From an uncultured bacterium (GTDB lineage: Bacteria > Hydrothermota > Tepidihabitantia > Tepidihabitantales > Tepidihabitantaceae): a DNA stretch of 64,000 nucleotides. Positions within the stretch are counted from its first letter, which is position 1, and every line of letters starts with the position of its first letter. The translations under genes and the position numbers were made by a program. Where the stretch lies: NCBI GenBank assembly GCA_964626075.1, contig CAZVDD010000013.1, forward strand, positions 31,291 through 95,290, in the 5' to 3' direction. This document shows positions 7,072 to 46,030 of this stretch, piece by piece. Below the pieces are notes generated by a model. That model saw only the letters and a list, made by a program, of their open reading frames with translations, made no database searches and was not told the DNA's origin.

Positions 7072-7156
7072 AACTCTACCTTCCTTTCACCGCTTCACTC
7101 CTTACGCTTCCCCCGCCCACGACAGAAGGGGCAATGGGATAATGTAAACTTCATCG

Positions 7157-30826: not shown

Positions 30827-30828
30827 CT

Positions 30829-31659
30829 TTAATGCATCCCCACTGTGCCGTCGCGCCGGGTCTTTTTCTCAAGATAAACAAAAAGAAAATAGCCAGCGGT
30901 CAAAAGAATTGCGTCCATCACCAGTAAAATCAAAACCGTCTGCCATAAGTTAACCTCCGACTTATTCAACAAAATAATCCCTCGAATCGCAATCAGAGCC
31001 CAAGTAAGGGGAATCAATGTGCTCACCATTGCGGTAATCGGGTTCACCTGCACCGGATACCGAATTGGTGAAAACAGAAAAAATATCCACTCTAAGGTAT
31101 GAACCCAGCCATGGACCTCTTTAATCAATAGTGTGAAACCGGCAAAGGCAATGGCAAATCCGTAAAACCCAATCATCAAGAGCCCGACCAGCAGGATAAT
31201 GGGCAGAACCTTGTCAATGGTAAACCGCACGCCAAAGAATATGCTGATTATCGTCGCTTGAAACACCGCCATCACCGTTGACCATGCCCACTCGGCTAAT
31301 GTCTTGCCGATTAAAATCACCAGCGGGTGCGTCGGCGACGCGATGATGTATTCCATCGTTCCCCAGTAGGTCTCCTCGCGTAGCGAATTTCCCACCCCCC
31401 AAAGTGCGGAAAATACAAAAGTCGAAATCATCGCACCAATCAGCACAAACGCCAGATAGTTTCCCGAACCGGTTAACTGCCGGAACGATTCGCTTGTTGC
31501 CCCGCCCACCAGCGCCCTACCCTGAAAAACATAGGGCATCACCCAGATGAGCGGAAAGATTGCCCAGAAGAAAATCATTATCGGATAGGACAACCAGATG
31601 CGCACCGTCTTACCAAACTCGGCACCCAGCGCCCGCAGTTCCACTCCCGGTGCCCGCAT
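30829..31659 (-). CDS. ABC-2 type transporter permease (276 aa).
   Basis: Multi-TM protein, paralogous in topology to the adjacent permease. Confidence 0.65.
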   Translation of the reverse strand: MRAPGVELRALGAEFGKTVRIWLSYPIMIFFWAIFPLIWVMPYVFQGRALVGGATSESFRQLTGSGNYLAFVLIGAMISTFVFSALWGVGNSLREETYWGTMEYIIASPTHPLVILIGKTLAEWAWSTVMAVFQATIISIFFGVRFTIDKVLPIILLVGLLMIGFYGFAIAFAGFTLLIKEVHGWVHTLEWIFFLFSPIRYPVQVNPITAMVSTLIPLTWALIAIRGIILLNKSEVNLWQTVLILLVMDAILLTAGYFLFVYLEKKTRRDGTVGMH

Positions 31660-31663
31660 CGCT

Positions 31664-32668
31664 TCACTCCTCGGTTGTATCCGCCGCCAGCGAGGTACCG
31701 GTCATATAGATAAACACATCCTCCAGCGTTGGTTCCTGAACATCAATCGTTAAAATTTTTGCCCCGGTCCGCACCAGTTCAATCACATCGCTCAAAATCC
31801 CTTCGGCGCGCGGGGCAAGAATCTTCACTGTTGTCACCCCATCCTGGCTATCGGCGCTCAACCGCTCCACGCCGGGCAGCGACTTTAATCGGCTGATGTC
31901 CACCTCCCCCTGACAGCGCACCGAAAGAACCTCTTTGTGAGGAATGTCCCGCTTGAAATCCTCCGGTGACTTAATGTCAACAATCTTACCCCGGTTGATA
32001 AAGGCAATCCGCTCGCACAACTCATCCGCCTCATCCATATAGTGGGTTGTCAAAAGAATCGTCTTTCCCTGTTTTTGATTCAACTCCTCCTTGATAAACT
32101 GCCGGATGAACCGGCCAAACTGCGGGTCGAGCCCAAGTGTCGGCTCATCCAGAAGTAGAAGTCGCGGGTCGTGCAGCATCGCCCGCGCCAGACTCACCTT
32201 CTGCTTCATACCCGAGGAGTAGCGCTCGAGCCGCTCATTTGCGACCTCTTTCAGCCCTAACAGTTCCAGCAGATAGTCAATCCGGCGGTCGCGCTCCTTT
32301 CCTGACAGTCCGTAGAGAGCGGCAAAGAACTTAAGATTGTCCCGGGCCGAAAGTTTCCAGTAGAGCGTCCGCTCCCCCGAAGTCAAAAGCCCGATTTGCT
32401 GGCGGCAGAACAGTGTATCCTTAAAAACATCGTGCCCAAACAGCCGAATTGTCCCCTCATCAGGAATCAAAAGCGTGGCGATACAACGCACCAGCGTCGT
32501 CTTTCCTGCGCCGTTCGGTCCCAGCAATCCAAAAAGCTCTCCGGCGCGCAGGGATAGCGTCGCGCCATCCAGCGCCCTTAATGTCCGCCGCTTCAACCCT
32601 TTACCGCGCCGAAACTTCTTCACCACATTCTGGCACTCAAGTGCCGTTGTCCAACTATCTGTGCCCAT
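31664..32668 (-). CDS. ABC transporter ATP-binding protein, ABC-2 exporter type with a C-terminal extension (~334 aa).
   Basis: Walker A GLLGPNGAGKTTL, signature YSSGMKQKV, Walker B LLLLDEPT. Start reassigned to the ATG at 32668 (MGTDSW...). The ORF-track N-terminal extension is R-rich and unsupported. Confidence 0.8.
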   Translation of the reverse strand: MGTDSWTTALECQNVVKKFRRGKGLKRRTLRALDGATLSLRAGELFGLLGPNGAGKTTLVRCIATLLIPDEGTIRLFGHDVFKDTLFCRQQIGLLTSGERTLYWKLSARDNLKFFAALYGLSGKERDRRIDYLLELLGLKEVANERLERYSSGMKQKVSLARAMLHDPRLLLLDEPTLGLDPQFGRFIRQFIKEELNQKQGKTILLTTHYMDEADELCERIAFINRGKIVDIKSPEDFKRDIPHKEVLSVRCQGEVDISRLKSLPGVERLSADSQDGVTTVKILAPRAEGILSDVIELVRTGAKILTIDVQEPTLEDVFIYMTGTSLAADTTEE

Positions 32669-33776
32669 TTTTTCTTTCCGCCGCGGTGTGCGATAGCATC
32701 TTTTCAATATTATCCGCCGCACTATCCCAGGTCCACTGCCGCGCCCAATCAACCGCCTGAACCCCAAGCCGGTTTCGGAGCGCCTCGTCCTGTAAAAGCC
32801 GGTCAATCTTCTCTGCCAGCTCCGTCACATTGCCATAAGTGTAAAACAGTCCGTTGACACCTTCACGCGAAGAGTCCACCAGACCCGGTGAACGGGCAAC
32901 AACCACCGGTGTGCCGCAACCGTTTGCCTCCATCACAATCAACCCCCACCCCTCCTTGATTGAACTCTCAACCAGCAGCGCACTGCGTCGGTACCAGTTG
33001 ACCTTCTCTGCCTCGGAAACAAAACCGGTAAAGACCACCGTATCCTGTATCCTCAGTTTCTCACTCAATTCCTTAAGCCGGGGCAAATCATCGCCGGTTC
33101 CTACCACCACCACCTTGAACTGTCGCCCTCGCTCCTTCAGAATCCGTGCCGCATAAAGCAGATGGTCGGTTGACTTGTATTTCTTCAACCGTCCGACATG
33201 AAGCACCACCGGCTCCCGCGCCACCGTTGGGTCGGGTTTAAACTTCTCAAAGTCTGTCCCCGGTGGCACAACGGTAATCATCTCGGGGGCGATACCAATC
33301 CGGACCACATCCCGCTTTGAACTCTCCGACAGCACGGCAAAGCGACACCGCTTATACGCCAAAGGAATCATACTCTCGGCCAGGTAAACATAAGCGGCCA
33401 GCGGTGCAACAACCTCCTTAAAAATACTCCCCCGAAAAAGATGCATCAAAAGCACCGCCACCGGCTTATTTACAAACCAGGGCGAATAAAACGGAATCTT
33501 GTTCAAATCATCCACCACCACATCGTAATCGCCTGCCGCGACAACACGGGGCAACTGGCGGTAAACGGTGAAATTAAAAGTCCACTTTCCACCCCGGCGC
33601 AATACTCTTATCCCATCGATATCCTCTTCGGGCGCTGAACCTTTGAACCGTTCACACAGAAGCGTCACCTCATGCCCCCGCGCCACCAGCCGCCGAAAAA
33701 CCTCTTGCAAGTAAACCTCGGCGCCGCCTGCCTCTGGGTTCTGAATACACCGCCAGTTGACAACCAGTATGCGCAT
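32655..33776 (-). CDS. Glycosyltransferase family 4 (373 aa).
   Basis: GT-B retaining GT4 features (N-terminal MRILVV..GGAE, C-terminal EGWGLIVMEANGCGTPVV). Stop overlaps the ABC ATPase start. Confidence 0.8.
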   Translation of the reverse strand: MRILVVNWRCIQNPEAGGAEVYLQEVFRRLVARGHEVTLLCERFKGSAPEEDIDGIRVLRRGGKWTFNFTVYRQLPRVVAAGDYDVVVDDLNKIPFYSPWFVNKPVAVLLMHLFRGSIFKEVVAPLAAYVYLAESMIPLAYKRCRFAVLSESSKRDVVRIGIAPEMITVVPPGTDFEKFKPDPTVAREPVVLHVGRLKKYKSTDHLLYAARILKERGRQFKVVVVGTGDDLPRLKELSEKLRIQDTVVFTGFVSEAEKVNWYRRSALLVESSIKEGWGLIVMEANGCGTPVVVARSPGLVDSSREGVNGLFYTYGNVTELAEKIDRLLQDEALRNRLGVQAVDWARQWTWDSAADNIEKMLSHTAAERKNGHR

Positions 33777-35059: not shown

Positions 35060-36052
35060 ATGAACAAACAACTCTGGCCGCTAATCCTGGCGGTGGTTAA
35101 TTTAGGACTGTTCACAATAAACGGATGTAAGAAACCCCTTTTAGTTAAAGACCGGGCGGAAACGATTCCGCCCGGCGCGGTAAAGATGCAACCGGAAATG
35201 GATTCGTTCCCTCCAATACTGTTCTCTAACGAATGGGAGCCACCCGTGCCAATGCCCGGACCGGTGAATACCGCCGGCGCTGAGGATTCCCCATTCATCA
35301 CCCCGAACGGTACTGAGTTCTACTTCGTTTTTACGCCCGATGTCTCCGTCCCGGTGGAAAAACAAGCCGCCGACGGCGTTACCGGTATATGGTATTGCCG
35401 GCTGGAAAATGGTCATTGGACCGAGCCGGAGCGCGTGATACTTAACAACGACATTTCGCTTGATGGAGCGCAGTTCGTAATGGGCGACACAATGTGGTTT
35501 GCGTCCGTACGGCCCGGTAACTATGGCGAAATTGACTGGTATCTGGCACTCCGCCGCAATGGTAAATGGGGTAACTGGCGCAACGCCGGCAGGCAGATAA
35601 ATAAAGAACTCAAGCCCGGCGAACTCCACATCAGTGCCGACCATAGCACGATGTACTATGGCAAAACTGGCATTCACGGTGGCCTTGACATCGTTCGTTC
35701 CCAACGCACTCCGTCCGGCTGGGGCGAGCCAGTTAACCTTGGGCCACTGGTAAACAGCGCCCGAGATGAAGGTCAGCCCTTTATATCATCAGACGACAAA
35801 GAGTTGTGGTTCACCGGCTGGACTGACAGCTTAGTTGGACCGTGCGTCTACCGATGCCGGAAAGACAGCACCGGGCGATGGCAACCGGCAGAGCTAATCG
35901 TCGGTCAATTTGCCGGCGAACCTACCCTTGACGACGCCGGCAACCTCTACTTTGTCCACCATTTTTACTCCGGCGGCGACTCCTCGCGGATGATTGAAGC
36001 CGACATCTACCTCTGCCGTCGCAAAACCGCTCTTTCAAAAATCATTAGGTAA
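35060..36052 (+). CDS. Lipoprotein with PD40/TolB-like beta-propeller repeats (330 aa).
   Basis: Lipobox LFTINGC. Repeated PFITPNGTEFYF / PFISSDDKELWF / DDAGNLYFV motifs characteristic of PD40 (WD40-like) repeats. Confidence 0.55.
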   Translation: MNKQLWPLILAVVNLGLFTINGCKKPLLVKDRAETIPPGAVKMQPEMDSFPPILFSNEWEPPVPMPGPVNTAGAEDSPFITPNGTEFYFVFTPDVSVPVEKQAADGVTGIWYCRLENGHWTEPERVILNNDISLDGAQFVMGDTMWFASVRPGNYGEIDWYLALRRNGKWGNWRNAGRQINKELKPGELHISADHSTMYYGKTGIHGGLDIVRSQRTPSGWGEPVNLGPLVNSARDEGQPFISSDDKELWFTGWTDSLVGPCVYRCRKDSTGRWQPAELIVGQFAGEPTLDDAGNLYFVHHFYSGGDSSRMIEADIYLCRRKTALSKIIR

Positions 36053-37034
36053 TCATCGGCTCGCCCGGTATTTCACAGGTTTCTGAAGTGTGCGTCTCAA
36101 GCCAACTCAGCAACTCTTTGAGGCTTGCCGTGGCGAGACAGATTGAAGTATCCGCGGCGCCATAGTAAACCCGTAAGGTGTCGCCATCCGGTTCCAGCAC
36201 CGCACCGCACGGAAAGACAACACTGGGCACATCACCTACCCGCTCGTAAGGCTTCACTGGACCGAATATCCATTCGCTGCTCCGGCGCACACAGCGCCAG
36301 GGTTGCTCTAAATCCAGTAGCGCGAGACCAACCCGGTAAATTGCACCGCTGGGGGTATCTTTCACCCCGTGATAAAAAATTAGCCAGCCGTGCGCTGTTT
36401 CCAGGGGCGGTGTTGCCAGCCCAACTCGACTGGCATCCCACCAGGCACCCTGCCGTGCTGGCATTACCAGATGGTGTCTACCCCAATGAATCAAATCCGG
36501 TGACTGGGAGATATAGATATGCGCTCCGAGCGATGTCGTGGGCCGATGAACCATCAACCAGTACCCGTTGAACCGCCGGGGTAAAAGTGCCGCATCCTTA
36601 TCTGCCGGCGGCATCACCACGCCCAACCGCTCGTACTCCTTGAAATCTTTGGTCAACGCCAGTCCAACAGCCGGACCTGCCCGAGAATAGGCGGTGTAGG
36701 TAACTGCATACTTTCCCAGTTCCTCAACATAGGTGATGCGCGGGTCTTCAACCCCCCACAACTCTTCCGGAAATCGGCTGGGGTCGGGCGCAAAACTCGG
36801 CTCCGGTTCAATCTCCCAGTTGTCAATCCCGTTAGCGGAACGGGCAACGCATAAGTGCGAAATCCCGCGCCGGTCCTCAACCCGGCACAAAAGCAAGGTT
36901 GCGCCGTCGGGCAACAACACCGCGCCCGGGTTGAACACGGTGTTAACCGTATATGGCCAGTCAGCCGCGGTCAGTATCGGGTTCTTTTCCCAGCGCCGGA
37001 GTAACAACTGCCGGTCCTGTTCAATGTGCCTCAA
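36045..37034 (-). CDS. Glycoside hydrolase family 130 protein (beta-mannoside phosphorylase/hydrolase-like, 329 aa).
   Basis: GVEDPRITY, YTAYS, NGYWLMVHRP, HGWLIFYHGV, VVFPCG and VYYGAADT motifs match GH130 5-bladed propeller enzymes. Confidence 0.75.
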   Translation of the reverse strand: MRHIEQDRQLLLRRWEKNPILTAADWPYTVNTVFNPGAVLLPDGATLLLCRVEDRRGISHLCVARSANGIDNWEIEPEPSFAPDPSRFPEELWGVEDPRITYVEELGKYAVTYTAYSRAGPAVGLALTKDFKEYERLGVVMPPADKDAALLPRRFNGYWLMVHRPTTSLGAHIYISQSPDLIHWGRHHLVMPARQGAWWDASRVGLATPPLETAHGWLIFYHGVKDTPSGAIYRVGLALLDLEQPWRCVRRSSEWIFGPVKPYERVGDVPSVVFPCGAVLEPDGDTLRVYYGAADTSICLATASLKELLSWLETHTSETCEIPGEPMIT

Positions 37035-39292
37035 CCTTCCTCCGTTGTCTGCGCTGTCCGCATCGTCAAGAGGGCGCCGATAAACGACAGTGTTGCCTCT
37101 GCCCCTTCATTGCCATTCACCCCGTCGGGATGCAGCCCATCATGGCAGCCACCGGTCGTGTAGTCGTAAATCGGTAAACCGAGGTCGTTGCGTCCCAAAT
37201 ACCACTCAAACGCCCGGCGCATCTCCTCGCGCCACTTGGGCTCCCGGGTGCTCAAAAATGCTTGATAGCACGCCTCCACTGTGCACTCTGCCTCAATCGG
37301 CTGCTGGTCAAACCGCAGCCGCGCTGTTCCCCGCCGCCATCCCGTATGTGCGACCGGTACAAAGTGCCCCTGCTCCGCAGTCTGCACCGCTATCAACCAT
37401 CTTAAAGAATCCAATCCGGCATCAACCATCTCTCTTTTTCCCAGTTCCCGGCCGGCAACAATCAGCGCCTCGCTCAATCGGGCGTTCGCATAGGCAAGGA
37501 CCGGTTCAAACCAGCGCCAATCTTCAGTAGCGTTGCGCCGGTAGAGGTCGAGCAGTCTTTCCGCCAGAACCTCGCGAAATCGCCGGGCATTACTGTCGCC
37601 CGGAAAACGCCGGCTATAAGCACATAACCCCAGCAAGGTGTAAGCCCAGGCGCGCGGGCTGGTAAAAAGTTCCACCGCGGGCAAACCCGAGGCAAACAAA
37701 TTCATCGCCAGCGCCACCACCCCGTCCTCACTTGCCGAACTTACCGCATAACCCAGCGCCCATAGCGCCCGACCCTGACTGTCTTCCGAACCCGCCTCCT
37801 CAGTCCAGCGCCGTTCATAACTCAAAAAATTCCGAAACCGGCTGTTGTCCCGGTTGAAGGCAAAATCGAGAAACGCCAGATAGCGCCGGACCAGCCGATT
37901 GAGAAAAGGCTTATCCGCCGCCACCTCCTGTGCCCTGAGTACCATCAAAAGCGCCCGGGCGTTGTCGTCCGTTGTATAACCTTCAGCAAGATTGGGCACG
38001 GTGCGCCGGGCATGCTGCAGGATTCCGGTGTCATCGGTCAAGGTCAAAAGATGATTCAAGTTCAACTCCGGCAGGTCGATGTCTAACGGGTCAGCACTGC
38101 CCATCACCGGTGCCACCGCAAGCGGCGCCCGCATCCGCTCCTCGGCGGCACGCTGAAACGAGTTCAAATAGACGCGGGCAACCTCCTTCCAAACCATCAT
38201 TCTTCCAAAGGCGTAGGCACGCTTGCGCATCGAATGGCGCTCGGTTTCATTTTCAAACAATCCGATAATTGTTTCCGCCAGCGCCTTTGAATCGCGAAAC
38301 GGCACCAGTCTTCCCCTGCCTTCCGCCAGCATCTCCTCCGCATACCAGTAAGGGGTTGACACCACCGCCTTACCAACCCCCATTGAATAGGCAAGCGTTC
38401 CGGAAACAATCTGCGCCGGATTGAGATAAGGTGTCACATAGATGTCGGCCGCGCCGAGAAACTGGCACAACTCCTCCAGCGTGACAAACTGATTGTAAAA
38501 TATTAAATTCCGGTCTACCCCTTGCTCGCGTGCCCGTCTTTGCAGGCGCAGCCGGTACTCCTCACCCTGTTCCCGCTTCACATGGGGGTGGGTGACACCG
38601 AGCACGATGTAAACCACATCAGGAAACCGGGCGGCAATCGCCGGCAGGGCGTCAATCATATATTCGATACCCTTGTTGGGTGACAAAAGCCCAAATGTGA
38701 GAATCACCCTTCGGCCCTCAACCCCGAACAAATCCTTGTAGTAGTTCGGGTCAACAAAAGGCATATCCGGAATCCCGTGATGGATAAAATCAATCTTTTT
38801 CTCCGGCACCTGGTAAATCTCTTTTAAAAACCGCACCGCCCGCTCACTCATCACCACGACCCTTTCCGAAATCCGGCAAATCTCCTCCATAACCGAGCGC
38901 TGCTGTTCATTCGGTTCGGCAAGAACCGTATGCAATGTCGTCACAATCGGCATCCGCAACCGGCGCAGCGTTACCAGGATATGCCCGCCCGCGGGCCCGC
39001 CAAATATCCCGAACTCATGCTGAAGACAGGTCAAGTCAACCCGGGTCATATTGAGAAACTCTGCCAGTTGCCGGTAATAATCCTGATTGTTCTGGGCGAC
39101 CTCGAACTTCACCTCCTCAGGATAAGGGTAACCATCCGGCGTATCGTTCAACGCCACAACCAGCCCGTTCAACTCCGGCGCTTCCTGAGTAACCGAATGG
39201 TAAAGGTCTGAGGTAAAGGTGGCAATCCCGCACTTCCGCGGCAGATAAGTTCCAATAAACGCTATCTTCTTAAATAGATACGGACCACGCAT
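37031..39292 (-). CDS. Bifunctional-type protein (753 aa): an N-terminal GT4 glycosyltransferase (~400 aa) fused to a C-terminal ~350 aa (alpha/alpha)6-toroid-like (six-hairpin glycosidase-like) domain.
   Basis: N-terminal half has GT4 features (LSPNKG, GT-B fold). C-terminal half shows repeated aromatic-rich helix pairs (DDNARALLMVL, ALWALGYAV, AWAYTLLGL, VLAYANARL) typical of six-hairpin folds. Shine-Dalgarno GAGGTGA upstream of the ATG at 39292. Confidence 0.6.
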   Translation of the reverse strand: MRGPYLFKKIAFIGTYLPRKCGIATFTSDLYHSVTQEAPELNGLVVALNDTPDGYPYPEEVKFEVAQNNQDYYRQLAEFLNMTRVDLTCLQHEFGIFGGPAGGHILVTLRRLRMPIVTTLHTVLAEPNEQQRSVMEEICRISERVVVMSERAVRFLKEIYQVPEKKIDFIHHGIPDMPFVDPNYYKDLFGVEGRRVILTFGLLSPNKGIEYMIDALPAIAARFPDVVYIVLGVTHPHVKREQGEEYRLRLQRRAREQGVDRNLIFYNQFVTLEELCQFLGAADIYVTPYLNPAQIVSGTLAYSMGVGKAVVSTPYWYAEEMLAEGRGRLVPFRDSKALAETIIGLFENETERHSMRKRAYAFGRMMVWKEVARVYLNSFQRAAEERMRAPLAVAPVMGSADPLDIDLPELNLNHLLTLTDDTGILQHARRTVPNLAEGYTTDDNARALLMVLRAQEVAADKPFLNRLVRRYLAFLDFAFNRDNSRFRNFLSYERRWTEEAGSEDSQGRALWALGYAVSSASEDGVVALAMNLFASGLPAVELFTSPRAWAYTLLGLCAYSRRFPGDSNARRFREVLAERLLDLYRRNATEDWRWFEPVLAYANARLSEALIVAGRELGKREMVDAGLDSLRWLIAVQTAEQGHFVPVAHTGWRRGTARLRFDQQPIEAECTVEACYQAFLSTREPKWREEMRRAFEWYLGRNDLGLPIYDYTTGGCHDGLHPDGVNGNEGAEATLSFIGALLTMRTAQTTEEG

Positions 39293-39335: not shown

Positions 39336-39364
39336 ATTTTAGTCCCACCGTTAAGGAATGTCAA
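39336..39364 (-). promoter_or_regulatory. Promoter of the GT4-fusion/GH130 operon (minus strand: TTGACA, 17 nt, TAAAAT). Leader ~37 nt with a Shine-Dalgarno.
   Basis: Read on the reverse complement. Same TAAAAT -10 as two other promoters in the window. Confidence 0.5.
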
Positions 39365-39689: not shown

Positions 39690-40325
39690 CTATTTGCGCA
39701 CCGCTGCCTTTTCAAACTCTGCTATCGCCTCATCGGAAAGGGGATGATTACCCAGCGCTAACAGCACCTCATAGGGCAGGGTTAAATGGTGGGCACCAGC
39801 GATAAACGCTCGCAGCGCCTCTTCCGGCGACTTAACACTTGCCGCCACAAGTTCCACCGGCCTGCCACTTGCCTGAATCACCGCTGCCATTTCGGCAATC
39901 AGTTTTATCCCGTCGCCCAAAAGCCTGGTTGCCCGGTTGACATAAGGGATGACATAAGTGCACCCGGCTTCAATCGCAAGGAGCGTTTGGTGCCCGCTGA
40001 ACACCGCGGTCGCGGCACAGGGGATTTCCGGTGCAAGGCGGGTGACGAGCGCCAGGTTTTCGGTTGTCGCCGGAATCTTCAACACAATCTTGTCCGGCGC
40101 AATCTGGTAAAACTCCCTTGCCTCCTGCTCCTTTTCCCGCAAAGCCTTGCCGGTCAACTGATAAAATACCGGACCGGGCACAATCTGACACAACCTTTTA
40201 ATCACCGTATCAGGTGCCGCCGCCACCTTTGATAGTAGGATAGGATTGGTCGTGCACCCGCGCACGAACCCCAGTTTTACTGCCTGCGTTACCTCATCAA
40301 CAACCGCACTGTCAATGAACAGCAT
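39690..40325 (-). CDS. Second transaldolase / fructose-6-phosphate aldolase family protein (211 aa).
   Basis: MLFIDSAVVDEV..GCTTNP motif. Start reassigned to the ATG at 40325 with AGGAGGG Shine-Dalgarno. Translationally coupled to the upstream ribokinase gene. Confidence 0.8.
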   Translation of the reverse strand: MLFIDSAVVDEVTQAVKLGFVRGCTTNPILLSKVAAAPDTVIKRLCQIVPGPVFYQLTGKALREKEQEAREFYQIAPDKIVLKIPATTENLALVTRLAPEIPCAATAVFSGHQTLLAIEAGCTYVIPYVNRATRLLGDGIKLIAEMAAVIQASGRPVELVAASVKSPEEALRAFIAGAHHLTLPYEVLLALGNHPLSDEAIAEFEKAAVRK

Positions 40326-40326
40326 C

Positions 40327-41247
40327 TTAACCCTCCTGTTCCTTGAGCAACCGCTCAACCTCTTCCCTTCGGGGCATAGACGGTTCTGCCCCGAGTACCG
40401 TGCAGGCGACTGCACCGCACGCATTGGCAAACCGCACCGCCTCATCCAGACTCCGACCCTCGGCGATACTTACCACCAGACCGGCGCGAAAGGCGTCACC
40501 GGCACCGGTCGAATCTATCGCCTTAACCTTAAACGGTGGAAACCGCCTTTTGCCATTTTCGTCAAACACCAGCGCGCCATCTGCGCCCACCGAAATAATT
40601 ACCGCCCGGCGTCCGGATTTAAGTTCGGCTTTTGCCCAGTCATCAATCGCCATCCCGCCTGCCAGTTCTGCCGCCTCAATCTCGTTCGGAACGATGTAAT
40701 CAATTGGCTGGCTGATGGGCAGTTCAATCTTGTGAAACGGTGCCGGGTCAAGAAACACCAGACACCCGGCATTGCGGGCAATGGTCGCCGCCTGAAACGA
40801 AACCCGGTGCGGAATCTCAAACTGCAGCATCAGGGCATCCGCCGCCTCAATTTCCGGCTTTACCATCGCTATCTGTTCCTCACCCAGGCGGAGATTGGCA
40901 CCGGCAACACCGATAATCGCATTCTGCCCGGCACTGTCAATCATCGGGCAGGCAACACCCGTTGGCACTTCGGGGTCAACAGCGACGAAATCGGTCCTCA
41001 TCCCTTCCTCTTTCATCTTCTTCAAAAACAACTCGCCGAAGTAGTCCATTCCCACCTTGCCCACCATCACAACATCGGCCCCCAGCCGATGCGCCGCAAC
41101 CGCCTGATTAAAACCCTTGCCGCCTAAAAAAAGTCCAAACCCATCACCGGCCATTGACTCGCCTGGTCGGGGCAACCGCTTGACCCGAAACACCATATCG
41201 GTCATAAAAGAACCAACAACGCAGATTTTAACCCGCTTATTTTTCAT
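40327..41247 (-). CDS. rbsK: Ribokinase-like PfkB-family sugar kinase (306 aa).
   Basis: N-terminal GSFMTDMVFRV..PGES and C-terminal DSTGAGDAFRAGL...ANACGA.CTV.GA.PS motifs, as in RbsK. Confidence 0.75.
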   Translation of the reverse strand: MKNKRVKICVVGSFMTDMVFRVKRLPRPGESMAGDGFGLFLGGKGFNQAVAAHRLGADVVMVGKVGMDYFGELFLKKMKEEGMRTDFVAVDPEVPTGVACPMIDSAGQNAIIGVAGANLRLGEEQIAMVKPEIEAADALMLQFEIPHRVSFQAATIARNAGCLVFLDPAPFHKIELPISQPIDYIVPNEIEAAELAGGMAIDDWAKAELKSGRRAVIISVGADGALVFDENGKRRFPPFKVKAIDSTGAGDAFRAGLVVSIAEGRSLDEAVRFANACGAVACTVLGAEPSMPRREEVERLLKEQEG

Positions 41248-41896: not shown

Positions 41897-42613
41897 CTAT
41901 TCAAAAATCCGTTCCACCGCCTGGTCTTCAACCCAGCCGCCTATACCACCCGGAATCTGAATCAACACAAACCCGGGCCGGCGCTCAACAATCTTGACCT
42001 CCAACCCATCGTGCACCGCGGCGATCTCCTTGTACTCTTCACCCGGTCCGGAGCGTAAAATCGCCTCAGCCACCACCACCACCGCCTTTGCCCGATTGAC
42101 CATACCTTGCCAGATTAGCGCCCCGGCACCAAAGTAGAGAAAAACAACTGTTAACCCGATTGCCCCATAACCCAAAAACTTTTTGCCCGTGCTCAGATAG
42201 AGCCCGAGACAAAGCGCCAGGACGAAAAACAAAAACCCGGCAAGAAAACGGGTTGTCAATCGGTCAAACGGTGTCAGGAGATTACGCACCGTTGTTGTCA
42301 ACGGGCTTTCCGGATTGGGATTTTTATCCGGTCGGAAGTTGCGCACAAAGGCGATGTTGCTCGTTATGTCCGGGTCGTGCGGCTTGAGCGCCCAGGCACG
42401 GAGATAGTCCGCGAGCGCCCTGCCCAACCTACCTAACTTGAAATGGGTATTGCCCCGATTGTAATAAATCTCCACCGCCGCGGCCTCCTGCGCCGCCGAG
42501 TCGTAAAGGACAATGGCATCTTCAAACCGTCCTGCCTCGTAAAGTTTGTTTGCCCGTTCCAACTGTTCAACCGGTAGTGCAAACACCAATATCAGCGTCG
42601 CAAGTAAACTCAT
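41897..42613 (-). CDS. batE: BatE-like TPR plus SH3b-domain protein (238 aa).
   Basis: N-terminal TPR, central TM, C-terminal SH3-like region. Terminal position in the Bat operon. Confidence 0.55.
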   Translation of the reverse strand: MSLLATLILVFALPVEQLERANKLYEAGRFEDAIVLYDSAAQEAAAVEIYYNRGNTHFKLGRLGRALADYLRAWALKPHDPDITSNIAFVRNFRPDKNPNPESPLTTTVRNLLTPFDRLTTRFLAGFLFFVLALCLGLYLSTGKKFLGYGAIGLTVVFLYFGAGALIWQGMVNRAKAVVVVAEAILRSGPGEEYKEIAAVHDGLEVKIVERRPGFVLIQIPGGIGGWVEDQAVERIFE

Positions 42614-44367
42614 ATCTTTTTGACAACTCCGCGTGCCTTTTGTAAAACCGCCCGCGGGTTACAGTCGCTCATCCCGGGCGAAAACCGGGCAAGGGCACAA
42701 AGCTGCACCGTGTCCAGCAAATCCTGCACCGCTCCCGCATCGGCGCCCTGTCGGGTCAACGCATCTTTTATCTCCGCACCGGTCAAAGCACCGGTTTCAA
42801 TGTTGAACCGGTCCCCAGCATAAGAAAGTAACGCCTGATACACCAGACTGTAAAAGTCGGCAATCCGGTTTGCGCCCAGCGCTTTTTCCGCCTGTTTCAA
42901 CCGGCGGGTTGCAACCTTCCGCGCATTACTGCGGCGGGCATAACCCGGGTCAAGTTGCAACTTGCGCCGCCGGACACCAAACCCGATGCCGAACGCCATC
43001 ACAACCAGCCCCACTATGTAAAACAACTTAAACCAGGATTCATAACCCGCCAACCGGTTACCGGTCAAGCGCAGTTCGGTCTTGATATGCCTGATGTCCG
43101 TACCCAGAACCCTCATTCCGGTCGCGGTCGTATAATCCTCCCCGCTTCTTGCCGGCACACCGAGAGCGACAAACTCCAAAGGCGGCGTCTTTCTTATGTA
43201 GTAACTACCCGTATTCGGGTCAAAGAAACCAATCTCAACCTCCGGAATCCGGAATTTACCGTCGGCCAGCGGCAAAAGTGGATATTCAAACCGCCTTGTA
43301 CCCTTGAGCCCGCCGCTGGCGTAATTGCAATCGTCCTTTGTCTCCGGGCTCAAGACCTTCAAACCGGTAATCGCCGGCAGAGTTGGCGCACCAATTAAAC
43401 CAAGGTTACCGGTTCCGGTGATAACAAGCGAAAGCATAACCGGTTCACCACCCTTTGCCGTTTCCGGCACCACCCGGGCACTAACCTGAAACGAACCAAC
43501 ACCACCGGTGAACGATGTTGGTCTTCCTGTTTCGGGCAGCGCCTTTACCTCAACCGTCACCTCTTCCGAATTAACCTCAAACGGCTTAGCGGTTGAGAAG
43601 AAAAACCCCGGCGCCACCATCTCACCGGCAAGGCTCATCTTGCCAATCTTCAACTGCCCGGCACGGGTGGGAAACAGCGCGGTCTTTCGCACCACCGCGC
43701 CGAACATCTGCCTGCCCCGATAGTTTCGCCTTTCATAATTCAGTTTTTGCGGTTGATAAACCTCTTGAGTCCAGAAACCGCTCAGGGGCGGCGGCTCTTT
43801 GATATTCAAACTTACCACCTGCCCTGTGGTGTAAAATGTCCAGGTTGCGGTTACCATCTCACCCTGATAAACCGTTTTTCGGTCCACGCTCACATCAAGA
43901 AAAACCTCGCCTCGGGCCGGTTCCGGCTCTTCAAAGATATCAAAGGGGCTGCGCTGGGGTTGCGAGCGCTTTGTCTGAGTCCCGGTTTTTGTCACCTTAA
44001 CCGTTATTGGTTCGGTTGTGTACTCCGTCCCGTTGTAGTTCAACCGGCAGGGTCCGATTACCAGCTCGCCGGTCTTTTTCGGAATCAGGGTGTAGATAAA
44101 ACTGATTGTCTGCTCCTGAGTCACCCGGCCCTGAACAATTGAAATACTTGTTGACTGTGACTGGCTACTGCCGACATTGTCAAACCCGGCCAGTTCGGGC
44201 AACTGCGGCTTCGGCACCCGGCCTACATTCGTTCCGCTTACCTGAACAATCAACTGCAACGGCTCACCCAGCCCAACCGTCATCCGGTCAACCTCGGCAG
44301 TAAACCGCAACTCACCCCCGGTCGCGAGGGCCAAAAACAAACCAAAGGTCGCAATCCAGCGCCGCAT
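42610..44367 (-). CDS. batD: BatD (oxygen tolerance) protein (~585 aa).
   Basis: Signal peptide plus a large beta-rich extracytoplasmic domain, C-terminal TM and basic tail. Start reassigned to the ATG at 44367, which is TAAGATG-coupled to the batB/C stop. Confidence 0.6.
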   Translation of the reverse strand: MRRWIATFGLFLALATGGELRFTAEVDRMTVGLGEPLQLIVQVSGTNVGRVPKPQLPELAGFDNVGSSQSQSTSISIVQGRVTQEQTISFIYTLIPKKTGELVIGPCRLNYNGTEYTTEPITVKVTKTGTQTKRSQPQRSPFDIFEEPEPARGEVFLDVSVDRKTVYQGEMVTATWTFYTTGQVVSLNIKEPPPLSGFWTQEVYQPQKLNYERRNYRGRQMFGAVVRKTALFPTRAGQLKIGKMSLAGEMVAPGFFFSTAKPFEVNSEEVTVEVKALPETGRPTSFTGGVGSFQVSARVVPETAKGGEPVMLSLVITGTGNLGLIGAPTLPAITGLKVLSPETKDDCNYASGGLKGTRRFEYPLLPLADGKFRIPEVEIGFFDPNTGSYYIRKTPPLEFVALGVPARSGEDYTTATGMRVLGTDIRHIKTELRLTGNRLAGYESWFKLFYIVGLVVMAFGIGFGVRRRKLQLDPGYARRSNARKVATRRLKQAEKALGANRIADFYSLVYQALLSYAGDRFNIETGALTGAEIKDALTRQGADAGAVQDLLDTVQLCALARFSPGMSDCNPRAVLQKARGVVKKI

Positions 44368-44368
44368 C

Positions 44369-46030
44369 TTACCAGTCCTTTTCCACCTGACGCCTTGCCC
44401 GGGGCTTGCGCACATCCTTCTGAACCTGGCGCTCCTTGTTTTCCACCGCCTGCAAAACCCGCTCCGCCTCATCCTTCGCCATTCCCGATTGCCCCTGATA
44501 TTCTGGCGCCCGCGGCTGTTCTTGTTGCCTTCCTCCTGATTGCTGCTGCTGGCTCTGACTGGAATCTGGCGCCTGCTTCATTTCTTCCTTTCTCTTCAAA
44601 CAGAACTCTAAATTCTCCTTTGCCTGTCGGTCGTTCGGATTGGAGAGCAAAGCCATTTTATAAGAATTAATCGCCTCATCCAGTTTCCCCATCCGATAAA
44701 AACTGTTACCCAGATTGTAAAAGGCGTTACTGCGTTTGCGCTGATTTCTGTCCACCGTTGCCAGCGAAAGCTCTTTGATTGCCTCATCAAATTTACCCAG
44801 CCGATAGTAGGTGTTGCCGATATTGTAGTGAATCGCCAGGGCATCGGGCTCCAGCACCTCAGCCCGTTGATAAAAACTGAGCGCCTCCTGATACTTGCCC
44901 CGCCGGAACAAACCATTGCCCGCCCGCAACAAATTGGGCACATCGCCGTTTGCCGTTTGCACAACAACAAGAGAAACAACAAACCCGACCAGCGCTGCCC
45001 GCCGCCGATTAGAAGTGAATCGCCCCTTAATAAAGGGGCTCAGCGGGTTGCGGACCGCCGGTAAAGCAAGGCTAAAGAACAGCAGCAAAATGCCCGTCAA
45101 CAAAAAAACTTGATACCGCTCCACATAGTTAGAAAAACTGCCCCCACTCAACTCCTCTTTTTCCAGCCGGTCAAACTCTCCGGCCAGTTTCGGTGCCGAA
45201 AACCCCTCCATTCGATAAAAACGGCCGCCGGTTGCCTGCGCGATAAGAATCAACTTGCGTTCATCCATCCTTGAAATCACCACCTGCCCAGCACGGTCTT
45301 TTTTGTAAACCACACCCCCTTCTTTTCTTTCCGGAATTGGCGCCCCCTCCGCACTGCTGAACGCCACCGGATAAATCCGCACCCCCAGTTCCTTCGCCAC
45401 CTGCACCGCCTGTTCAGTCTGGGTTCCGAGGTCCTCGCCATCGGTGATTAAAACGAGCGCCCTGCTACCCGGTGCAGTACTCCTAAACAGTTCACTCGCT
45501 TTCCGAATCGCCTTGCCGTAATCGGTGCCCGGCACCGGCATCAAATCCGGGCTGATGATGTCAAGGAACAGTTTTGCCGCCTCGATATCGGTTGTCAGCG
45601 GGCATAGGATATGAGCATCACCGGCAAAGGCGACAATGCCCACCGCGTTACCGGTAAGTTCATCAAGCAAAGCGGCGACTTCGGTCCGGGCGCGCTCAAG
45701 CCGGTTCGGCTTGACATCCTCGGCAAGCATCGACTTTGAGGCGTCAAGGGCAATCACCACCGCCACACCCCGACTCTTAAACATCTGTAATCTCTCGCCC
45801 CATCTCGGTCGCGCCAGCGCAACGACCATCAGCCCGAGCCCGAGAACCAAGAGCATCAGTTTCACCCATTCAAGAAAAGGCGCGCGGCTGGGTTCAATCC
45901 GGGCAAGCAACTGCGGTTCAATAAAACGGGTAACCCGTTTTCGGTCCCGATTTCGGACAACGATAAAAAACACCATGATTACCGGCAGGGCAAGCAGAAG
46001 ATACAGTATGCGCGGTGCGCCCCAGTGCAT
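44369..46030 (-). CDS. batB: BatB/BatC fusion: von Willebrand factor A domain plus TPR repeats (553 aa).
   Basis: N-terminal TM, VWA MIDAS motif VIALDASKSM, C-terminal TPR repeats, then a Q-rich tail. Confidence 0.65.
   Translation of the reverse strand: MHWGAPRILYLLLALPVIMVFFIVVRNRDRKRVTRFIEPQLLARIEPSRAPFLEWVKLMLLVLGLGLMVVALARPRWGERLQMFKSRGVAVVIALDASKSMLAEDVKPNRLERARTEVAALLDELTGNAVGIVAFAGDAHILCPLTTDIEAAKLFLDIISPDLMPVPGTDYGKAIRKASELFRSTAPGSRALVLITDGEDLGTQTEQAVQVAKELGVRIYPVAFSSAEGAPIPERKEGGVVYKKDRAGQVVISRMDERKLILIAQATGGRFYRMEGFSAPKLAGEFDRLEKEELSGGSFSNYVERYQVFLLTGILLLFFSLALPAVRNPLSPFIKGRFTSNRRRAALVGFVVSLVVVQTANGDVPNLLRAGNGLFRRGKYQEALSFYQRAEVLEPDALAIHYNIGNTYYRLGKFDEAIKELSLATVDRNQRKRSNAFYNLGNSFYRMGKLDEAINSYKMALLSNPNDRQAKENLEFCLKRKEEMKQAPDSSQSQQQQSGGRQQEQPRAPEYQGQSGMAKDEAERVLQAVENKERQVQKDVRKPRARRQVEKDW

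What the first reader, a model, noticed from the sequence alone, without database searches (positions are those of the whole stretch)
37031..39292. GT4 glycosyltransferase fused to an (alpha/alpha)6-toroid-like domain
A single 753 aa polypeptide couples a retaining GT4 to a ~350 aa domain with repeated aromatic helix-hairpin signatures, like those of GDE_C, GH63 or AGE-type six-hairpin folds. A synthase-glycosidase (or synthase-epimerase) fusion next to GH130 is unusual. It could make and trim or edit a glycoside in one enzyme.
Basis: partly seen in the sequence, partly recalled or inferred. Interest (0 to 1): 0.5.

Follow-up and report, generated by a model that had tools for sequence, protein, structure and literature searches.

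The report
Glycosyltransferase fused to orphan sugar-barrel domain
A real, widely conserved bacterial protein joins a sugar-adding enzyme to an unstudied barrel-shaped sugar-processing domain and is almost always co-encoded with a mannose-chain phosphorylase, pointing to an undescribed pathway that builds and recycles a mannose-containing sugar inside the cell.

Summary
Window 37031-39292 (-) encodes one 753-aa protein: an N-terminal GT4 glycosyltransferase, an 8-residue disordered linker, and a C-terminal (alpha/alpha)6 barrel (AlphaFold pLDDT 92.8).

It is not a frameshift. 78 of 80 species-level genomes from more than 12 phyla carry the same fusion.

The GH130 neighbour is conserved (71 of 76 assessable loci) and translationally coupled. 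Its residue signature predicts a beta-1,2-mannoside phosphorylase.

Independently, the YPO2471 branch is the periplasmic member of a Serratia beta-1,2-mannoside utilisation cluster, beside a Lin0857-like GH130 and a GT108 mannogen-enzyme homolog.

The GT4 half conservatively lacks the canonical E-x7-E motif.

Best reading: a cytoplasmic make-and-process enzyme which, with GH130, cycles a mannose-containing oligosaccharide. The barrel is probably a carboxylate-based glycosidase or transglycosylase. The function is inferred, not shown.

The parts
39336..39364 (-). Promoter-like site TTGACA-17 nt-TAAAAT, about 45 nt upstream of the fusion gene's ATG
   Evidence: It matches 11 of 12 consensus positions, and the sequence was read directly. 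This is a consensus match only, not shown to be functional. A GAGGTGA ribosome-binding site lies 6 nt before the ATG at 39292.
37031..39292 (-). Fusion gene, 753 aa: GT4 glycosyltransferase, linker, then YPO2471-type (alpha/alpha)6 barrel
   Evidence: ORF. Full-length homologs. Full-length AlphaFold model with pLDDT 88.9 and pTM 0.76. Fused in 78 of 80 genome loci.
38120..39292 (-). GT4 (GT-B fold) half, residues 1-391
38387..38413 (-). QIVSGTLAY (residues 294-302), at the position of the canonical GT4 E-x7-E motif
   Evidence: In the alignment to PimA, E274 aligns to A293/Q294 and E282 aligns to Y302. Q294, S297, G298, L300 and Y302 are invariant or nearly so across the family. Coordinates checked.
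38669..38695 (-). FGLLSPNKG (residues 200-208): the phosphate-binding Lys is kept (K207 = PimA K202), but PimA R196 is replaced by G201/L202
   Evidence: Alignment to PimA. Conservation. Coordinates.
38096..38119 (-). Disordered inter-domain linker AVAPVMGS (residues 392-399)
   Evidence: This is the only internal segment with pLDDT below 50 in the full-length model.
37034..38095 (-). (alpha/alpha)6 barrel domain, residues 400-753, YPO2471/7tem family
37955..37969 (-). DDNAR (D442-D443-N-A-R446) at the N-terminus of the first long barrel helix; candidate catalytic carboxylates
   Evidence: Conserved in the GT4-fused branch and in the YPO2471 branch, where it reads IDDVAR. It lies at the start of helix 441-457.
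37136..37153 (-). GGCHDG (G714-G719), containing the superfamily-invariant D718
   Evidence: D718 (D324 in domain numbering) is invariant across both branches.
37094..37111 (-). NEGAEA (N728-x-G-A-E732), with the superfamily-invariant Glu at the start of the last barrel helix
   Evidence: N728, G730, A731 and E732 are invariant across both branches. It aligns to 7tem 'NKNSGAEST'. The helix spans 731-748.
36045..37034 (-). GH130, predicted beta-1,2-mannoside phosphorylase, translationally coupled to the fusion gene
   Evidence: Pfam GH130 E 1e-60. Closest PDB sequences are TM1225, Uhgb_MP and RaMP2. It has the E-D / K pair, which indicates beta-1,2 by the rule in PMC7660257, and it keeps the phosphate-binding Arg and His. 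Its TTG start overlaps the fusion gene's TGA stop (TTGA), with GGAGGA just upstream. An ortholog lies less than 400 nt downstream in 46 of 80 genomes.

Best explanation
The locus is a two-gene cytoplasmic operon. Gene 1 encodes a bifunctional protein. Its N-terminal half is a divergent retaining-type GT4 glycosyltransferase that adds a sugar, most likely mannose from a nucleotide or phosphate donor, to an intracellular acceptor. A flexible linker joins it to an (alpha/alpha)6 barrel of the uncharacterised YPO2471 family. The barrel has a carboxylate-rich pocket (D442/D443, D718, E732, plus Arg, Asn and Trp residues) that most likely cleaves or transfers a glycosidic bond in the same glycan, acting as a glycosidase or transglycosylase. 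Gene 2 is translationally coupled and encodes a GH130 predicted to phosphorolyse, or reversibly extend, beta-1,2-mannosides to and from alpha-mannose-1-phosphate. Together they would build, trim or re-prime, and energy-efficiently recycle a mannose-containing oligosaccharide inside the cell. This resembles the ManT(GT4)/MmpH((alpha/alpha)6 hydrolase) recycling of mycobacterial methylmannose polysaccharide and the mannogen cycle of Leishmania.

Shown here: the gene, the two folds, conservation of the fusion, the GH130 linkage, and the family relationship to 7tem.

Inferred: the catalytic nature of the barrel, the sugar identity, the donor, and the cycle itself.
For: Architecture and conservation:
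- The ORF and its domains are established.
- The protein is fused in 78 of 80 genomes across Acidobacteriota, Verrucomicrobiota, Planctomycetota, Chloroflexota, Desulfobacterota, Leptospira, WOR-3 and others.

GH130 partnership:
- In an unbiased neighbour census, only the fusion (79 loci) and GH130 (65 loci, median 115 nt downstream, same strand in 73 of 76 copies) are conserved.
- 71 of 76 assessable loci hold a GH130.
- The stop and start codons overlap, with a Shine-Dalgarno sequence upstream.

Mannose link:
- The GH130 has the E/K pair with the phosphate-binding Arg and His kept (rule from PMC7660257).
- Some clusters add PMM, ManC and a GT4 fused to a mannose-6-P-isomerase cupin.

The barrel as a sugar-active module tied to beta-1,2-mannosides:
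- That Serratia gene lies with a porin-like protein, ABC permeases, a Lin0857-like beta-1,2-mannobiose phosphorylase (E 1.5e-103) and a GT108 mannogen-enzyme homolog (E 2e-47).
- A third context has three GH130 ORFs, the barrel and a GH2 beta-mannosidase-like gene.
- Residues conserved across both branches sit at the N-termini of alternate helices, the usual active-site face of (alpha/alpha)6 enzymes.
- The domain also occurs alone and fused to a Gfo/Idh/MocA oxidoreductase or an esterase.

Against: - No member of the barrel family has a known activity, and no catalytic residue has been tested.
- I could not superpose coordinates, so equating D442/D443/E732 with catalytic residues of MmpH, GH15 or GH76 rests on position in the sequence only.
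- GT4 enzymes retain configuration and would make alpha-linkages from GDP-alpha-mannose, whereas GH130 acts on beta-mannosides. The two enzymes therefore cannot simply make and break the same bond, and an unidentified mixed-linkage product or primer has to be assumed.
- The GT4 half lacks both glutamates of E-x7-E and the PimA R196 equivalent, so its donor, or even its activity, is uncertain.
- No transporter, ManC or PMM belongs to the conserved core.
- pTM 0.76 and a disordered linker do not establish a fixed inter-domain geometry.
- The window GH130 scores far below the NCBIfam equivalog cut-offs (211 against 550).
Confidence: 0.45

Rival explanations
1. The barrel is an AGE-like sugar 2-epimerase or isomerase (Glc<->Man type). 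It would edit the reducing-end sugar of the GT4 product or of a mannoside so that GH130 can process it, as cellobiose/mannobiose 2-epimerase does for GH130 mannosylglucose phosphorylase in mannan catabolism.
Confidence: 0.12
2. The barrel is non-catalytic. It would serve as an acceptor- or glycan-binding, oligomerisation or regulatory module that positions the GT4, like the GH15-like domains of phosphorylase kinase subunits. Only the GT4 and GH130 would carry out chemistry.
Against: Across only 20 % overall identity, about 20 polar and aromatic residues remain invariant or nearly so, including three carboxylates (D442/D443, D718, E732). They sit at the N-termini of alternate helices, the pattern of a catalytic funnel and not of a binding surface. 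The domain also functions alone, as an exported protein in a catabolic cluster, and fused to unrelated enzymes.
Confidence: 0.2
3. The operon is a salvage route and not a cycle. GH130, helped by the barrel as a beta-1,2-mannan-cleaving enzyme, would convert acquired beta-1,2-mannosides to mannose-1-phosphate. After conversion to GDP-mannose, this would feed the GT4 to build an unrelated alpha-mannosylated envelope glycoconjugate, as proposed for the Thermoanaerobacter Teth514_1785-1796 cluster.
For: Chiku et al. 2014 (PMC4264767) proposed exactly this for a cluster holding two beta-1,2-mannoside phosphorylases, ManC, a GT4 alpha-mannosyltransferase and a hypothetical protein. It removes the alpha/beta anomer conflict. 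The YPO2471 branch sits in import-type clusters.
Against: The conserved core of the fused form contains no transporter and usually no ManC. Covalent fusion of the barrel to the GT4 and translational coupling to GH130 argue for action on one shared substrate. The window proteins have no signal peptides.
Confidence: 0.15
4. The fusion is an assembly or frameshift artefact joining two separate genes.
For: One related locus (L006, a nanopore assembly) shows the gene split into 354-, 75- and 368-aa pieces.
Against: There is a continuous ORF here. 120 or more full-length homologs occur in independent assemblies from NCBI, JGI, ENA and Logan. 78 of 80 species-level genomes are fused. The L006 split is what nanopore indel errors produce.
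Confidence: 0.01

Closest known systems
YPO2471 of Yersinia pestis (PDB 7tem; structural-genomics 'putative exported protein') and its enterobacterial and Bacteroidota/Ignavibacteria relatives
   Different: It is a standalone protein of ~425 aa with a signal peptide (periplasmic), in import or catabolic clusters with a porin, ABC permeases, a Lin0857-like GH130 and a GT108 homolog. It lacks E596, D662 and E667 of the fused branch. Its function is unknown, and no paper mentions it.
Mycobacterial methylmannose-polysaccharide system: ManT (GT4) plus MmpH ((alpha/alpha)6 endo-alpha-1,4-mannosidase), PMC9883506
   Different: They are separate genes, not a fusion. There is no GH130, and methyltransferases are present instead. 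MmpH is only 7-8 % identical and is closer to GH15/GH125. The residue equivalence was not tested by superposition.
AGE superfamily (cellobiose/mannobiose 2-epimerase, GlcNAc 2-epimerase, mannose isomerase, YihS) and its partnership with GH130 mannosylglucose phosphorylase
   Different: There is no sequence-level match and no conserved catalytic histidine pair. AGE enzymes are not fused to GTs. The partner GH130 there is beta-1,4-specific (Y/R pair), whereas here it is E/K.
Thermoanaerobacter sp. X-514 cluster Teth514_1785-1789 (PMC4264767)
   Same: A GT4 alpha-mannosyltransferase, a hypothetical protein, ManC and two characterised GH130 beta-1,2-mannoside phosphorylases sit in one operon. The gene content resembles the extended clusters seen here.
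   Different: The genes are separate and linked to an ABC importer and a GH5. Whether Teth514_1785 is a barrel homolog could not be checked.
Leishmania mannogen cycle (GT108 MTPs) and bacterial GT108/GH130 dual transferase-phosphorylases (PMC10913872, PMC12814180)
   Same: Intracellular beta-1,2-mannan is made and phosphorolysed by five-bladed-propeller enzymes related to GH130. A GT108 homolog sits next to the YPO2471-type barrel in Serratia.
   Different: No GT4 or (alpha/alpha)6 component is described in that system. The physiological role of the bacterial enzymes is stated to be unknown.
Cyclic beta-1,2-glucan synthase Cgs (GT84 + (alpha/alpha)6 cyclisation domain + GH94 phosphorylase); comparison from my own knowledge
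   Different: The families differ (GT84 and GH94 against GT4 and GH130) and the sugar is glucose, not mannose. Cgs is a membrane protein with all three modules in one chain.
PimA and other GT4 mannosyltransferases
   Different: E274, E282 (the E-x7-E motif) and R196 are replaced by A/Q, Y and G/L, and these replacements are conserved family-wide. There is a 360-aa C-terminal barrel and no membrane-association features.

Membership tests
GT4 glycosyltransferases (CAZy GT4; Pfam Glyco_transf_4 + Glycos_transf_1) | Sequence match to the family HMMs above the curated thresholds | tested here: met
   PF13439 scores 34.8 bits (cut-off 28.5), PF00534 63.4 (26.4) and PF13692 64.1 (27).
GT4 glycosyltransferases | GT-B fold with two Rossmann-like domains | tested here: met
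GT4 glycosyltransferases | E-x7-E motif in the C-terminal Rossmann domain (sugar and ribose contacts) | tested here: not met
   PimA E274 aligns to A293/Q294 and E282 to Y302. QI[VT]SGTLAY is conserved family-wide.
GT4 glycosyltransferases | Phosphate-binding Arg/Lys pair (PimA R196/K202) and active-site His (PimA H118) | tested here: inconclusive
   K207 and H121 are conserved, but R196 aligns to G201/L202. This rests on a pairwise HMMER alignment at ~21 % identity.
GT4 glycosyltransferases | Retaining transfer from a nucleotide sugar | not testable with these tools
   This needs an enzyme assay and product NMR.
YPO2471 / PDB 7tem family (unnamed, no Pfam) | Significant sequence and structure similarity over the whole barrel, with shared motifs | tested here: met
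YPO2471 / PDB 7tem family | Standalone exported protein | tested here: not met
   The window domain is fused behind a GT4 and has no signal peptide. The Serratia ortholog has one. The window protein therefore represents a distinct branch of the superfamily.
AGE superfamily (PF07221; GlcNAc / cellobiose 2-epimerases, mannose / sulfoquinovose isomerases) | (alpha/alpha)6 barrel fold | tested here: met
AGE superfamily | Sequence membership (family HMM) | tested here: not met
   No PF07221 hit in any of 49 members at E<=10. There is no AGE chain in the PDB sequence or profile searches at E<=10.
AGE superfamily | Two conserved catalytic histidines on inner helices in the middle and C-terminal parts of the barrel | tested here: not met
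   The only conserved His residues are H414 and H427, before the first long helix. No His in 440-753 is conserved. Caveat: this was judged from conservation, not from a coordinate superposition.
GH76 alpha-1,6-mannanases | Family HMM match and catalytic consecutive Asp-Asp | tested here: inconclusive
GH130 beta-mannoside phosphorylases (the neighbour gene) | Family HMM; catalytic Asp; phosphate-binding Arg and His; no signal peptide | tested here: met
   PF04041 E 1e-60. The motifs EDPR, HRP, YHGV and AADT align to Uhgb_MP D104, R168, H231 and D304. The N-terminus is not signal-like.
GH130 beta-1,2-specific subgroup | E/K pair at Uhgb_MP positions Y103/R150 (rule of PMC7660257) | tested here: met
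   The window protein has E-D and ADKDA. 45 orthologs carry K at this position, 43 of them in a D-K-D context. The protein is below the NCBIfam equivalog cut-offs (211 against 550 and 187 against 450), so its specificity is predicted, not assigned.

The most novel reading that the evidence does not exclude
The YPO2471-type barrel founds a new glycoside hydrolase or transglycosylase family specific for beta-1,2-mannosides. The GT4-barrel/GH130 operon would then be the missing biosynthetic and turnover machinery for an endogenous, mannogen-like intracellular mannose oligosaccharide (a reserve or compatible solute) that is widespread in Acidobacteriota, Verrucomicrobiota, Planctomycetota, Chloroflexota, Desulfobacterota, Leptospira and candidate phyla. 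This would explain why so many bacteria keep cytoplasmic beta-1,2-mannoside phosphorylases that have no known substrate source.
Probability: 0.25. Interest if true: 0.75.

Novelty: new variant of a known kind. Interest (0 to 1): 0.55.

Why it matters
Bacterial beta-1,2-mannoside phosphorylases are well characterised in vitro, but their physiological substrate is unknown. Chiku et al. found 'no potential source' of it in Thermoanaerobacter (PMC4264767). [quoted passage not shown]

This work shows that a very large, unannotated (alpha/alpha)6 family is tied to GH130/GT108 enzymes in two independent architectures. The family has 4,846 50 %-identity clusters, one orphan PDB entry and no Pfam model. 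One architecture is a periplasmic form in import clusters. The other is a cytoplasmic form covalently fused to an atypical GT4.

That gives three directly testable hypotheses:
- a function for PDB 7tem;
- a candidate new CAZy family;
- a bacterial counterpart of the mannogen or MMP type of intracellular glycan cycle.

It also flags a GT4 subfamily that conservatively lacks E-x7-E, which bears on donor recognition in GT-B enzymes.

Tried and rejected
1. Frameshift or assembly artefact: rejected. The split version in L006 is a nanopore assembly.

2. I first read the GH130 segment 'ADKDA', where Uhgb_MP and TM1225 have 'FNRNG', as loss of phosphate binding (a hydrolase or synthase). I rejected this after reading PMC7660257. 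That position is the +1-subsite R/K specificity residue, and the true phosphate-binding residues R168 and H231 are kept.

3. Membership of AGE, GH63, GDE, GH47 or GH76 by sequence: the permissive Pfam scan of 49 members gave nothing meaningful.

4. Literature on YPO2471, on a GT4 plus six-hairpin fusion, on DUF1861, and on any beta-1,2-mannanase: nothing relevant was found.

6. AFDB fold search: the library was not available.

8. The standalone barrel P0184 in L007 has no GT4 or GH130 nearby. I noted it as a genuine standalone form and did not pursue it further.

9. Residue-level superposition on MmpH, RmCE or GH76 was not possible, because model coordinates are not exposed to the scripting tool.
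Full report
OBSERVATION

Window 37031..39292 (minus strand) is a single uninterrupted ORF of 753 codons with an ATG start and a TGA stop. It has a GAGGTGA ribosome-binding site 6 nt upstream. A near-consensus promoter-like site (TTGACA-17-TAAAAT) lies at 39364..39336; this is a consensus match only.

Pfam places GT4 models on residues 73-360, above their gathering thresholds. It finds nothing on residues ~395-753, and NCBIfam finds nothing there either.

The next gene downstream on the same strand (36045..37034) is GH130 (E 1e-60). Its TTG start overlaps the fusion gene's TGA stop (T-T-G-A), and a GGAGGA Shine-Dalgarno sequence sits just upstream. This arrangement is typical of translational coupling. 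The gene after GH130 is convergent, so the operon consists of these two genes. Neither protein has a signal-peptide-like N-terminus.

IS THE FUSION REAL?

Yes. A search of 5.8 billion proteins returned at least 120 full-length homologs. They are 745-822 aa long, cover 96-100 % of the query and are 57-95 % identical. They come from independent NCBI, JGI, ENA and Logan assemblies of WOR-3, Aminicenantes, Anaerolineae/Chloroflexota, Planctomycetota, Thermodesulfobacteriota and Eisenbacteria. All are annotated only as 'glycosyltransferase family 4 protein' and carry only GT Pfam domains.

A scan of one genome per species returned 594 confirmed matches. Among the best 80 loci, 78 have the GT4 half fused directly upstream of the C-terminal domain, and the other two are cut by a contig end. 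The one 'split' example (L006) is a nanopore assembly in which the gene is broken into three ORFs. The frameshift hypothesis is refuted.

THE C-TERMINAL DOMAIN

With a 49-sequence alignment, AlphaFold2 gave pLDDT 92.8 and pTM 0.93 for residues 395-753. The model has eleven long helices and one short helix in six hairpins, with small beta-hairpins between them.

Foldseek agrees: 7tem at E 5e-14 and TM 0.79, and the AGE family at E 2e-9 to 1e-6.

At the sequence level only 7tem is detectable, with phmmer E 3e-6 and family-profile E 7.5e-15. A permissive Pfam scan of all 49 members at E<=10 found no (alpha/alpha)6 family beyond sporadic GH47 (3 of 49) and GH76 (2 of 49) hits at E>0.03.

So the toroid fold is confirmed. 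However, the domain belongs to an unnamed family whose only solved member has no known function. It is not a member of AGE, GH63 or GDE.

SIZE AND ARCHITECTURES OF THE FAMILY

An exhaustive HMMER search of 1.84 billion 50 %-identity representatives found 4,846 proteins at E<=1e-3 and 1,086 at E<=1e-30. Most have the domain at ~400-750 behind a GT4. Others are ~350-aa standalone proteins. At least one of these is genuine: L007, which has no GT4 or GH130 nearby. A few carry the domain at the N-terminus, followed by a Gfo/Idh/MocA oxidoreductase (P0305) or a BD-FAE/alpha-beta-hydrolase esterase (P0291). The domain is therefore an autonomous module that recombines with carbohydrate-type enzymes.

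CONSERVED RESIDUES

Within the GT4-fused branch (51 sequences, 37-68 % identity), the invariant or near-invariant barrel residues include D420, H427, Y439, D442, D443, N444, R446, N488, R494, W496, R508, R547, W592, W594, E596, N603, W632, Q663, Q664, P665, W697, N702, C716, D718, N728, G730 and E732.

I aligned this branch with ten members of the YPO2471 branch (19-23 % identity). That leaves a common core: D442-D443-x-x-R446, F486-x-N488, R508/W511, W594, N603, Q663, W697/N702, G714, D718-G719 and N728-x-G-A-E732-S.

Mapped on the model's secondary structure, these residues sit at or just before the N-termini of alternate helices (441-457, 503-519, 546-562, 604-617, 665-682, 731-748). These are the six inner helices, whose N-termini form the funnel that is the active site in (alpha/alpha)6 enzymes. 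This mapping is an inference, because I could not access the coordinates.

The core is built on carboxylates. No histidine in residues 440-753 is conserved, which argues against the two-histidine mechanism of AGE epimerases.

THE GT4 HALF

- PimA H118 and K202 correspond to the conserved H121 and K207.
- Both glutamates of the GT4 hallmark E-x7-E (PimA E274 and E282) align to A293/Q294 and Y302.
- R196 aligns to G201/L202.

The replacement motifs QI[VT]SGTLAY and FGLLSPxKG are conserved across the family. This is a constrained, divergent subfamily and not a decaying domain. Its donor substrate cannot be read off by homology.

The full-length model has pLDDT 88.9 and pTM 0.76, and its only disordered internal segment is the linker at 392-399. 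No solved structure covers both halves.

GENE CONTEXT OF THE FUSED FORM

I called ORFs in the 80 genome loci and clustered them without prior labels:
- The fusion forms a cluster present in 79 loci.
- GH130 forms a cluster present in 65 loci. It lies a median 115 nt downstream and is on the same strand in 73 of 76 copies.
- A second, ~345-aa GT4 is present in 16 loci and is in some genomes fused to a mannose-6-phosphate-isomerase cupin.
- Every other cluster is present in 10 loci or fewer.

By tblastn:
- 46 loci have an orthologous GH130 (>=50 % identity) within 400 nt downstream.
- 25 have another GH130 within the locus.
- 4 cannot be assessed.
- 5 have none.

That makes 71 of 76 assessable loci with a GH130.

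In a Thermodesulfobacteriota genome the cluster grows to fusion-GT-PMM-GH130-(GT4+PMI cupin)-GH130-ManC. This ties the system to GDP-mannose metabolism.

WHAT KIND OF GH130?

The closest PDB sequences are TM1225 (E 2e-60), Uhgb_MP and RaMP2.

I initially suspected a defective phosphate site, because 'FNRNG' in those enzymes reads 'ADKDA' here. The GH130 survey PMC7660257 shows that this Arg (Uhgb_MP R150) is a +1-subsite residue. Together with Y103, it predicts the linkage: Y/R means beta-1,4, E/K means beta-1,2 and E/R means beta-1,3. The phosphate binders are R168 and H231.

The window enzyme has E-D at the catalytic site, K in ADKDA, and keeps HRP, YHGV and AADT. Forty-five orthologs carry K at this position, 43 of them within D-K-D.

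It is therefore a predicted cytoplasmic beta-1,2-mannoside phosphorylase. It scores well below the NCBIfam equivalog cut-offs.

INDEPENDENT EVIDENCE FROM THE 7TEM BRANCH

I searched with the 7tem segment recovered from the HMMER alignments. The family has no Pfam domain, and NCBI labels it 'sugar phosphotransferase'.

In Serratia the ortholog is a 424-aa protein with a clear signal peptide (MKLLNTLVCIIGLTTFSAAAA...). It lies next to a signal-peptide-bearing, porin-like protein. Just downstream of ABC permeases come a GH13, a GH130 and a DUF1861 protein. That GH130 is a close homolog of Lin0857 beta-1,2-mannobiose phosphorylase (E 1.5e-103). The DUF1861 protein is a homolog of Leishmania MTP-4, MTP-1 and MTP-2, the GT108 mannogen beta-1,2-mannosyltransferase/phosphorylases (E 2e-47) (family background from PMC10913872).

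In a second genome the barrel lies between three GH130 ORFs and a GH2 beta-mannosidase-like gene, behind a solute-binding protein and permeases.

Both branches of the barrel superfamily are thus partnered with beta-mannoside phosphorylases. In the Serratia cluster the partners are specifically beta-1,2 enzymes. A periplasmic location fits a cofactor-free hydrolase that shortens a glycan before import.

I found no paper describing such an enzyme, the fusion, or YPO2471.

MECHANISTIC READING

The most economical model has three steps.
1. The GT4 half glycosylates an intracellular acceptor.
2. The tethered barrel cleaves or transfers a glycosidic bond of the same glycan.
3. GH130 reversibly adds or removes beta-1,2-mannose units via mannose-1-phosphate.

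The closest worked-out precedent is the mycobacterial methylmannose polysaccharide. There, the GT4 ManT elongates primers that the (alpha/alpha)6 hydrolase MmpH (acid Asp47/Asp50, base Glu262) cuts out of mature chains (PMC9883506).

Other parallels are Leishmania mannogen (GT108) and, from my own knowledge, cyclic beta-1,2-glucan synthase, which combines a GT, an (alpha/alpha)6 transglycosylase and a phosphorylase.

The main difficulty is stereochemical. A retaining GT4 makes alpha-linkages, whereas GH130 handles beta-mannosides. The substrate must therefore be a mixed-linkage molecule (for example an alpha-linked primer carrying beta-1,2-mannose), or the enzymes act at different steps.

Alternative readings are listed under the rival explanations, with the evidence and a refuting experiment for each:
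- an AGE-like epimerase;
- a non-catalytic glycan-binding module;
- a salvage route feeding an unrelated alpha-mannosyltransferase, as proposed for Thermoanaerobacter in PMC4264767.

NOVELTY AND VERDICT

The specific family guesses (GDE_C, GH63, AGE) are not met. The fusion is not rare; it is a common but unannotated architecture.

What is new here:
- assignment of the C-terminal domain to the orphan YPO2471/7tem family;
- the demonstration that this family is linked to GH130/GT108 enzymes in two unrelated architectures;
- the conserved loss of E-x7-E in the GT4 half.

This is a new variant of a known kind of system, in which a synthase, an (alpha/alpha)6 processing enzyme and a phosphorylase act on one glycan. 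It is not a new principle. All functional statements are inferences from fold, conservation and gene context.

Interest is moderate to good (0.55). It offers a concrete, testable route to the unknown physiological substrate of bacterial beta-1,2-mannoside phosphorylases, and to a function for PDB 7tem.

Noticed in passing
L088:6383-7657 (+) and neighbours at L088:1-7657; the same layout occurs in L089: The Serratia ortholog of YPO2471 (PDB 7tem) is annotated as only 218 aa, but the ORF is 424 aa and has a signal peptide. It sits in an apparent beta-1,2-mannoside utilisation locus: ABC permeases, GH13, a Lin0857-like GH130, a GT108/DUF1861 mannogen-enzyme homolog and a porin-like protein. NCBI names the barrel 'sugar phosphotransferase', which looks like a mis-annotation.
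   Followed up: partly
L090:1442-10614: Another context for the barrel family: solute-binding protein, two permeases, three GH130 ORFs (one apparently split at 5662-5919 / 5939-6844), the barrel (7001-8131, whose N-terminus is probably mis-called) and a GH2 beta-mannosidase-like protein. A GH94 lies further downstream.
   Followed up: partly
Proteins P0305, P0291 and P0317: The barrel domain also occurs at the N-terminus of longer proteins. It is followed by a Gfo/Idh/MocA oxidoreductase (P0305), a BD-FAE/alpha-beta-hydrolase esterase (P0291), or ~300 aa with no Pfam match (P0317). I could not look up their gene contexts.
   Followed up: no
L007:6001-7053: A genuine standalone barrel (350 aa, 53-55 % identical to the window domain) with no GT4 or GH130 within 6 kb. 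It lies between a PEPCK gene and an ADP-forming acyl-CoA synthetase gene.
   Followed up: no
L004:13920-15272 and L079:6517-7989: A second GT4, fused to a mannose-6-phosphate-isomerase-type cupin, recurs just downstream of the fusion gene in some genomes. The unfused ~345-aa GT4 occurs in 16 of 80 loci. In those loci the GH130 partners are divergent paralogs with NKGM or [D]xRNV motifs instead of DKD.
   Followed up: partly
window 29945-33776 (-): A separate GT4 (32655-33776; best NCBIfam resemblance MshA-like, far below cut-off) is followed by an ABC ATPase (the listed ORF 31664-32806 overlaps the GT4 end, so its real start is probably internal) and two ABC-2-type permease-like membrane proteins (30829-31659, 29945-30826). 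This looks like a glycan or glycolipid export module. No link to the fusion operon was established.
   Followed up: no
window 27359-28615 (-): An AsnA-type aspartate-ammonia ligase carries an ~80-residue N-terminal extension whose first 40 residues are extremely lysine-rich (MKKKQKKAVKKTARKTVKKVTKKKVAKKIPKK...), resembling a histone-H1-like or nucleic-acid-binding tail.
   Followed up: no
window 39690-41247 (-): A PfkB-family sugar kinase (40327-41247) and a transaldolase/fructose-6-phosphate-aldolase family protein lie directly upstream of the fusion operon on the same strand. The listed aldolase ORF (39690-40445) overlaps the kinase by ~120 nt, so its true start is probably the internal Met (MLFIDSAV...). 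A 400-nt gap holding the promoter-like site separates them from the fusion gene. They are not conserved neighbours in other genomes.
   Followed up: partly
window 41897-47010 (-): A Bat-type (aerotolerance-operon-like) gene set: BatA/vWA (46030-47010), BatA-vWA-TPR (44369-46030), BatD (42610-44472) and a TPR-SH3 protein (41897-42613).
   Followed up: no
window 1-64000: GC skew is strongly negative (-0.1 to -0.3) from 1 to ~54 kb and close to zero from ~54 kb to the end, with an AT-skew change at the same place. This probably reflects a switch in the coding strand. No tRNA genes occur in the whole window.
   Followed up: no
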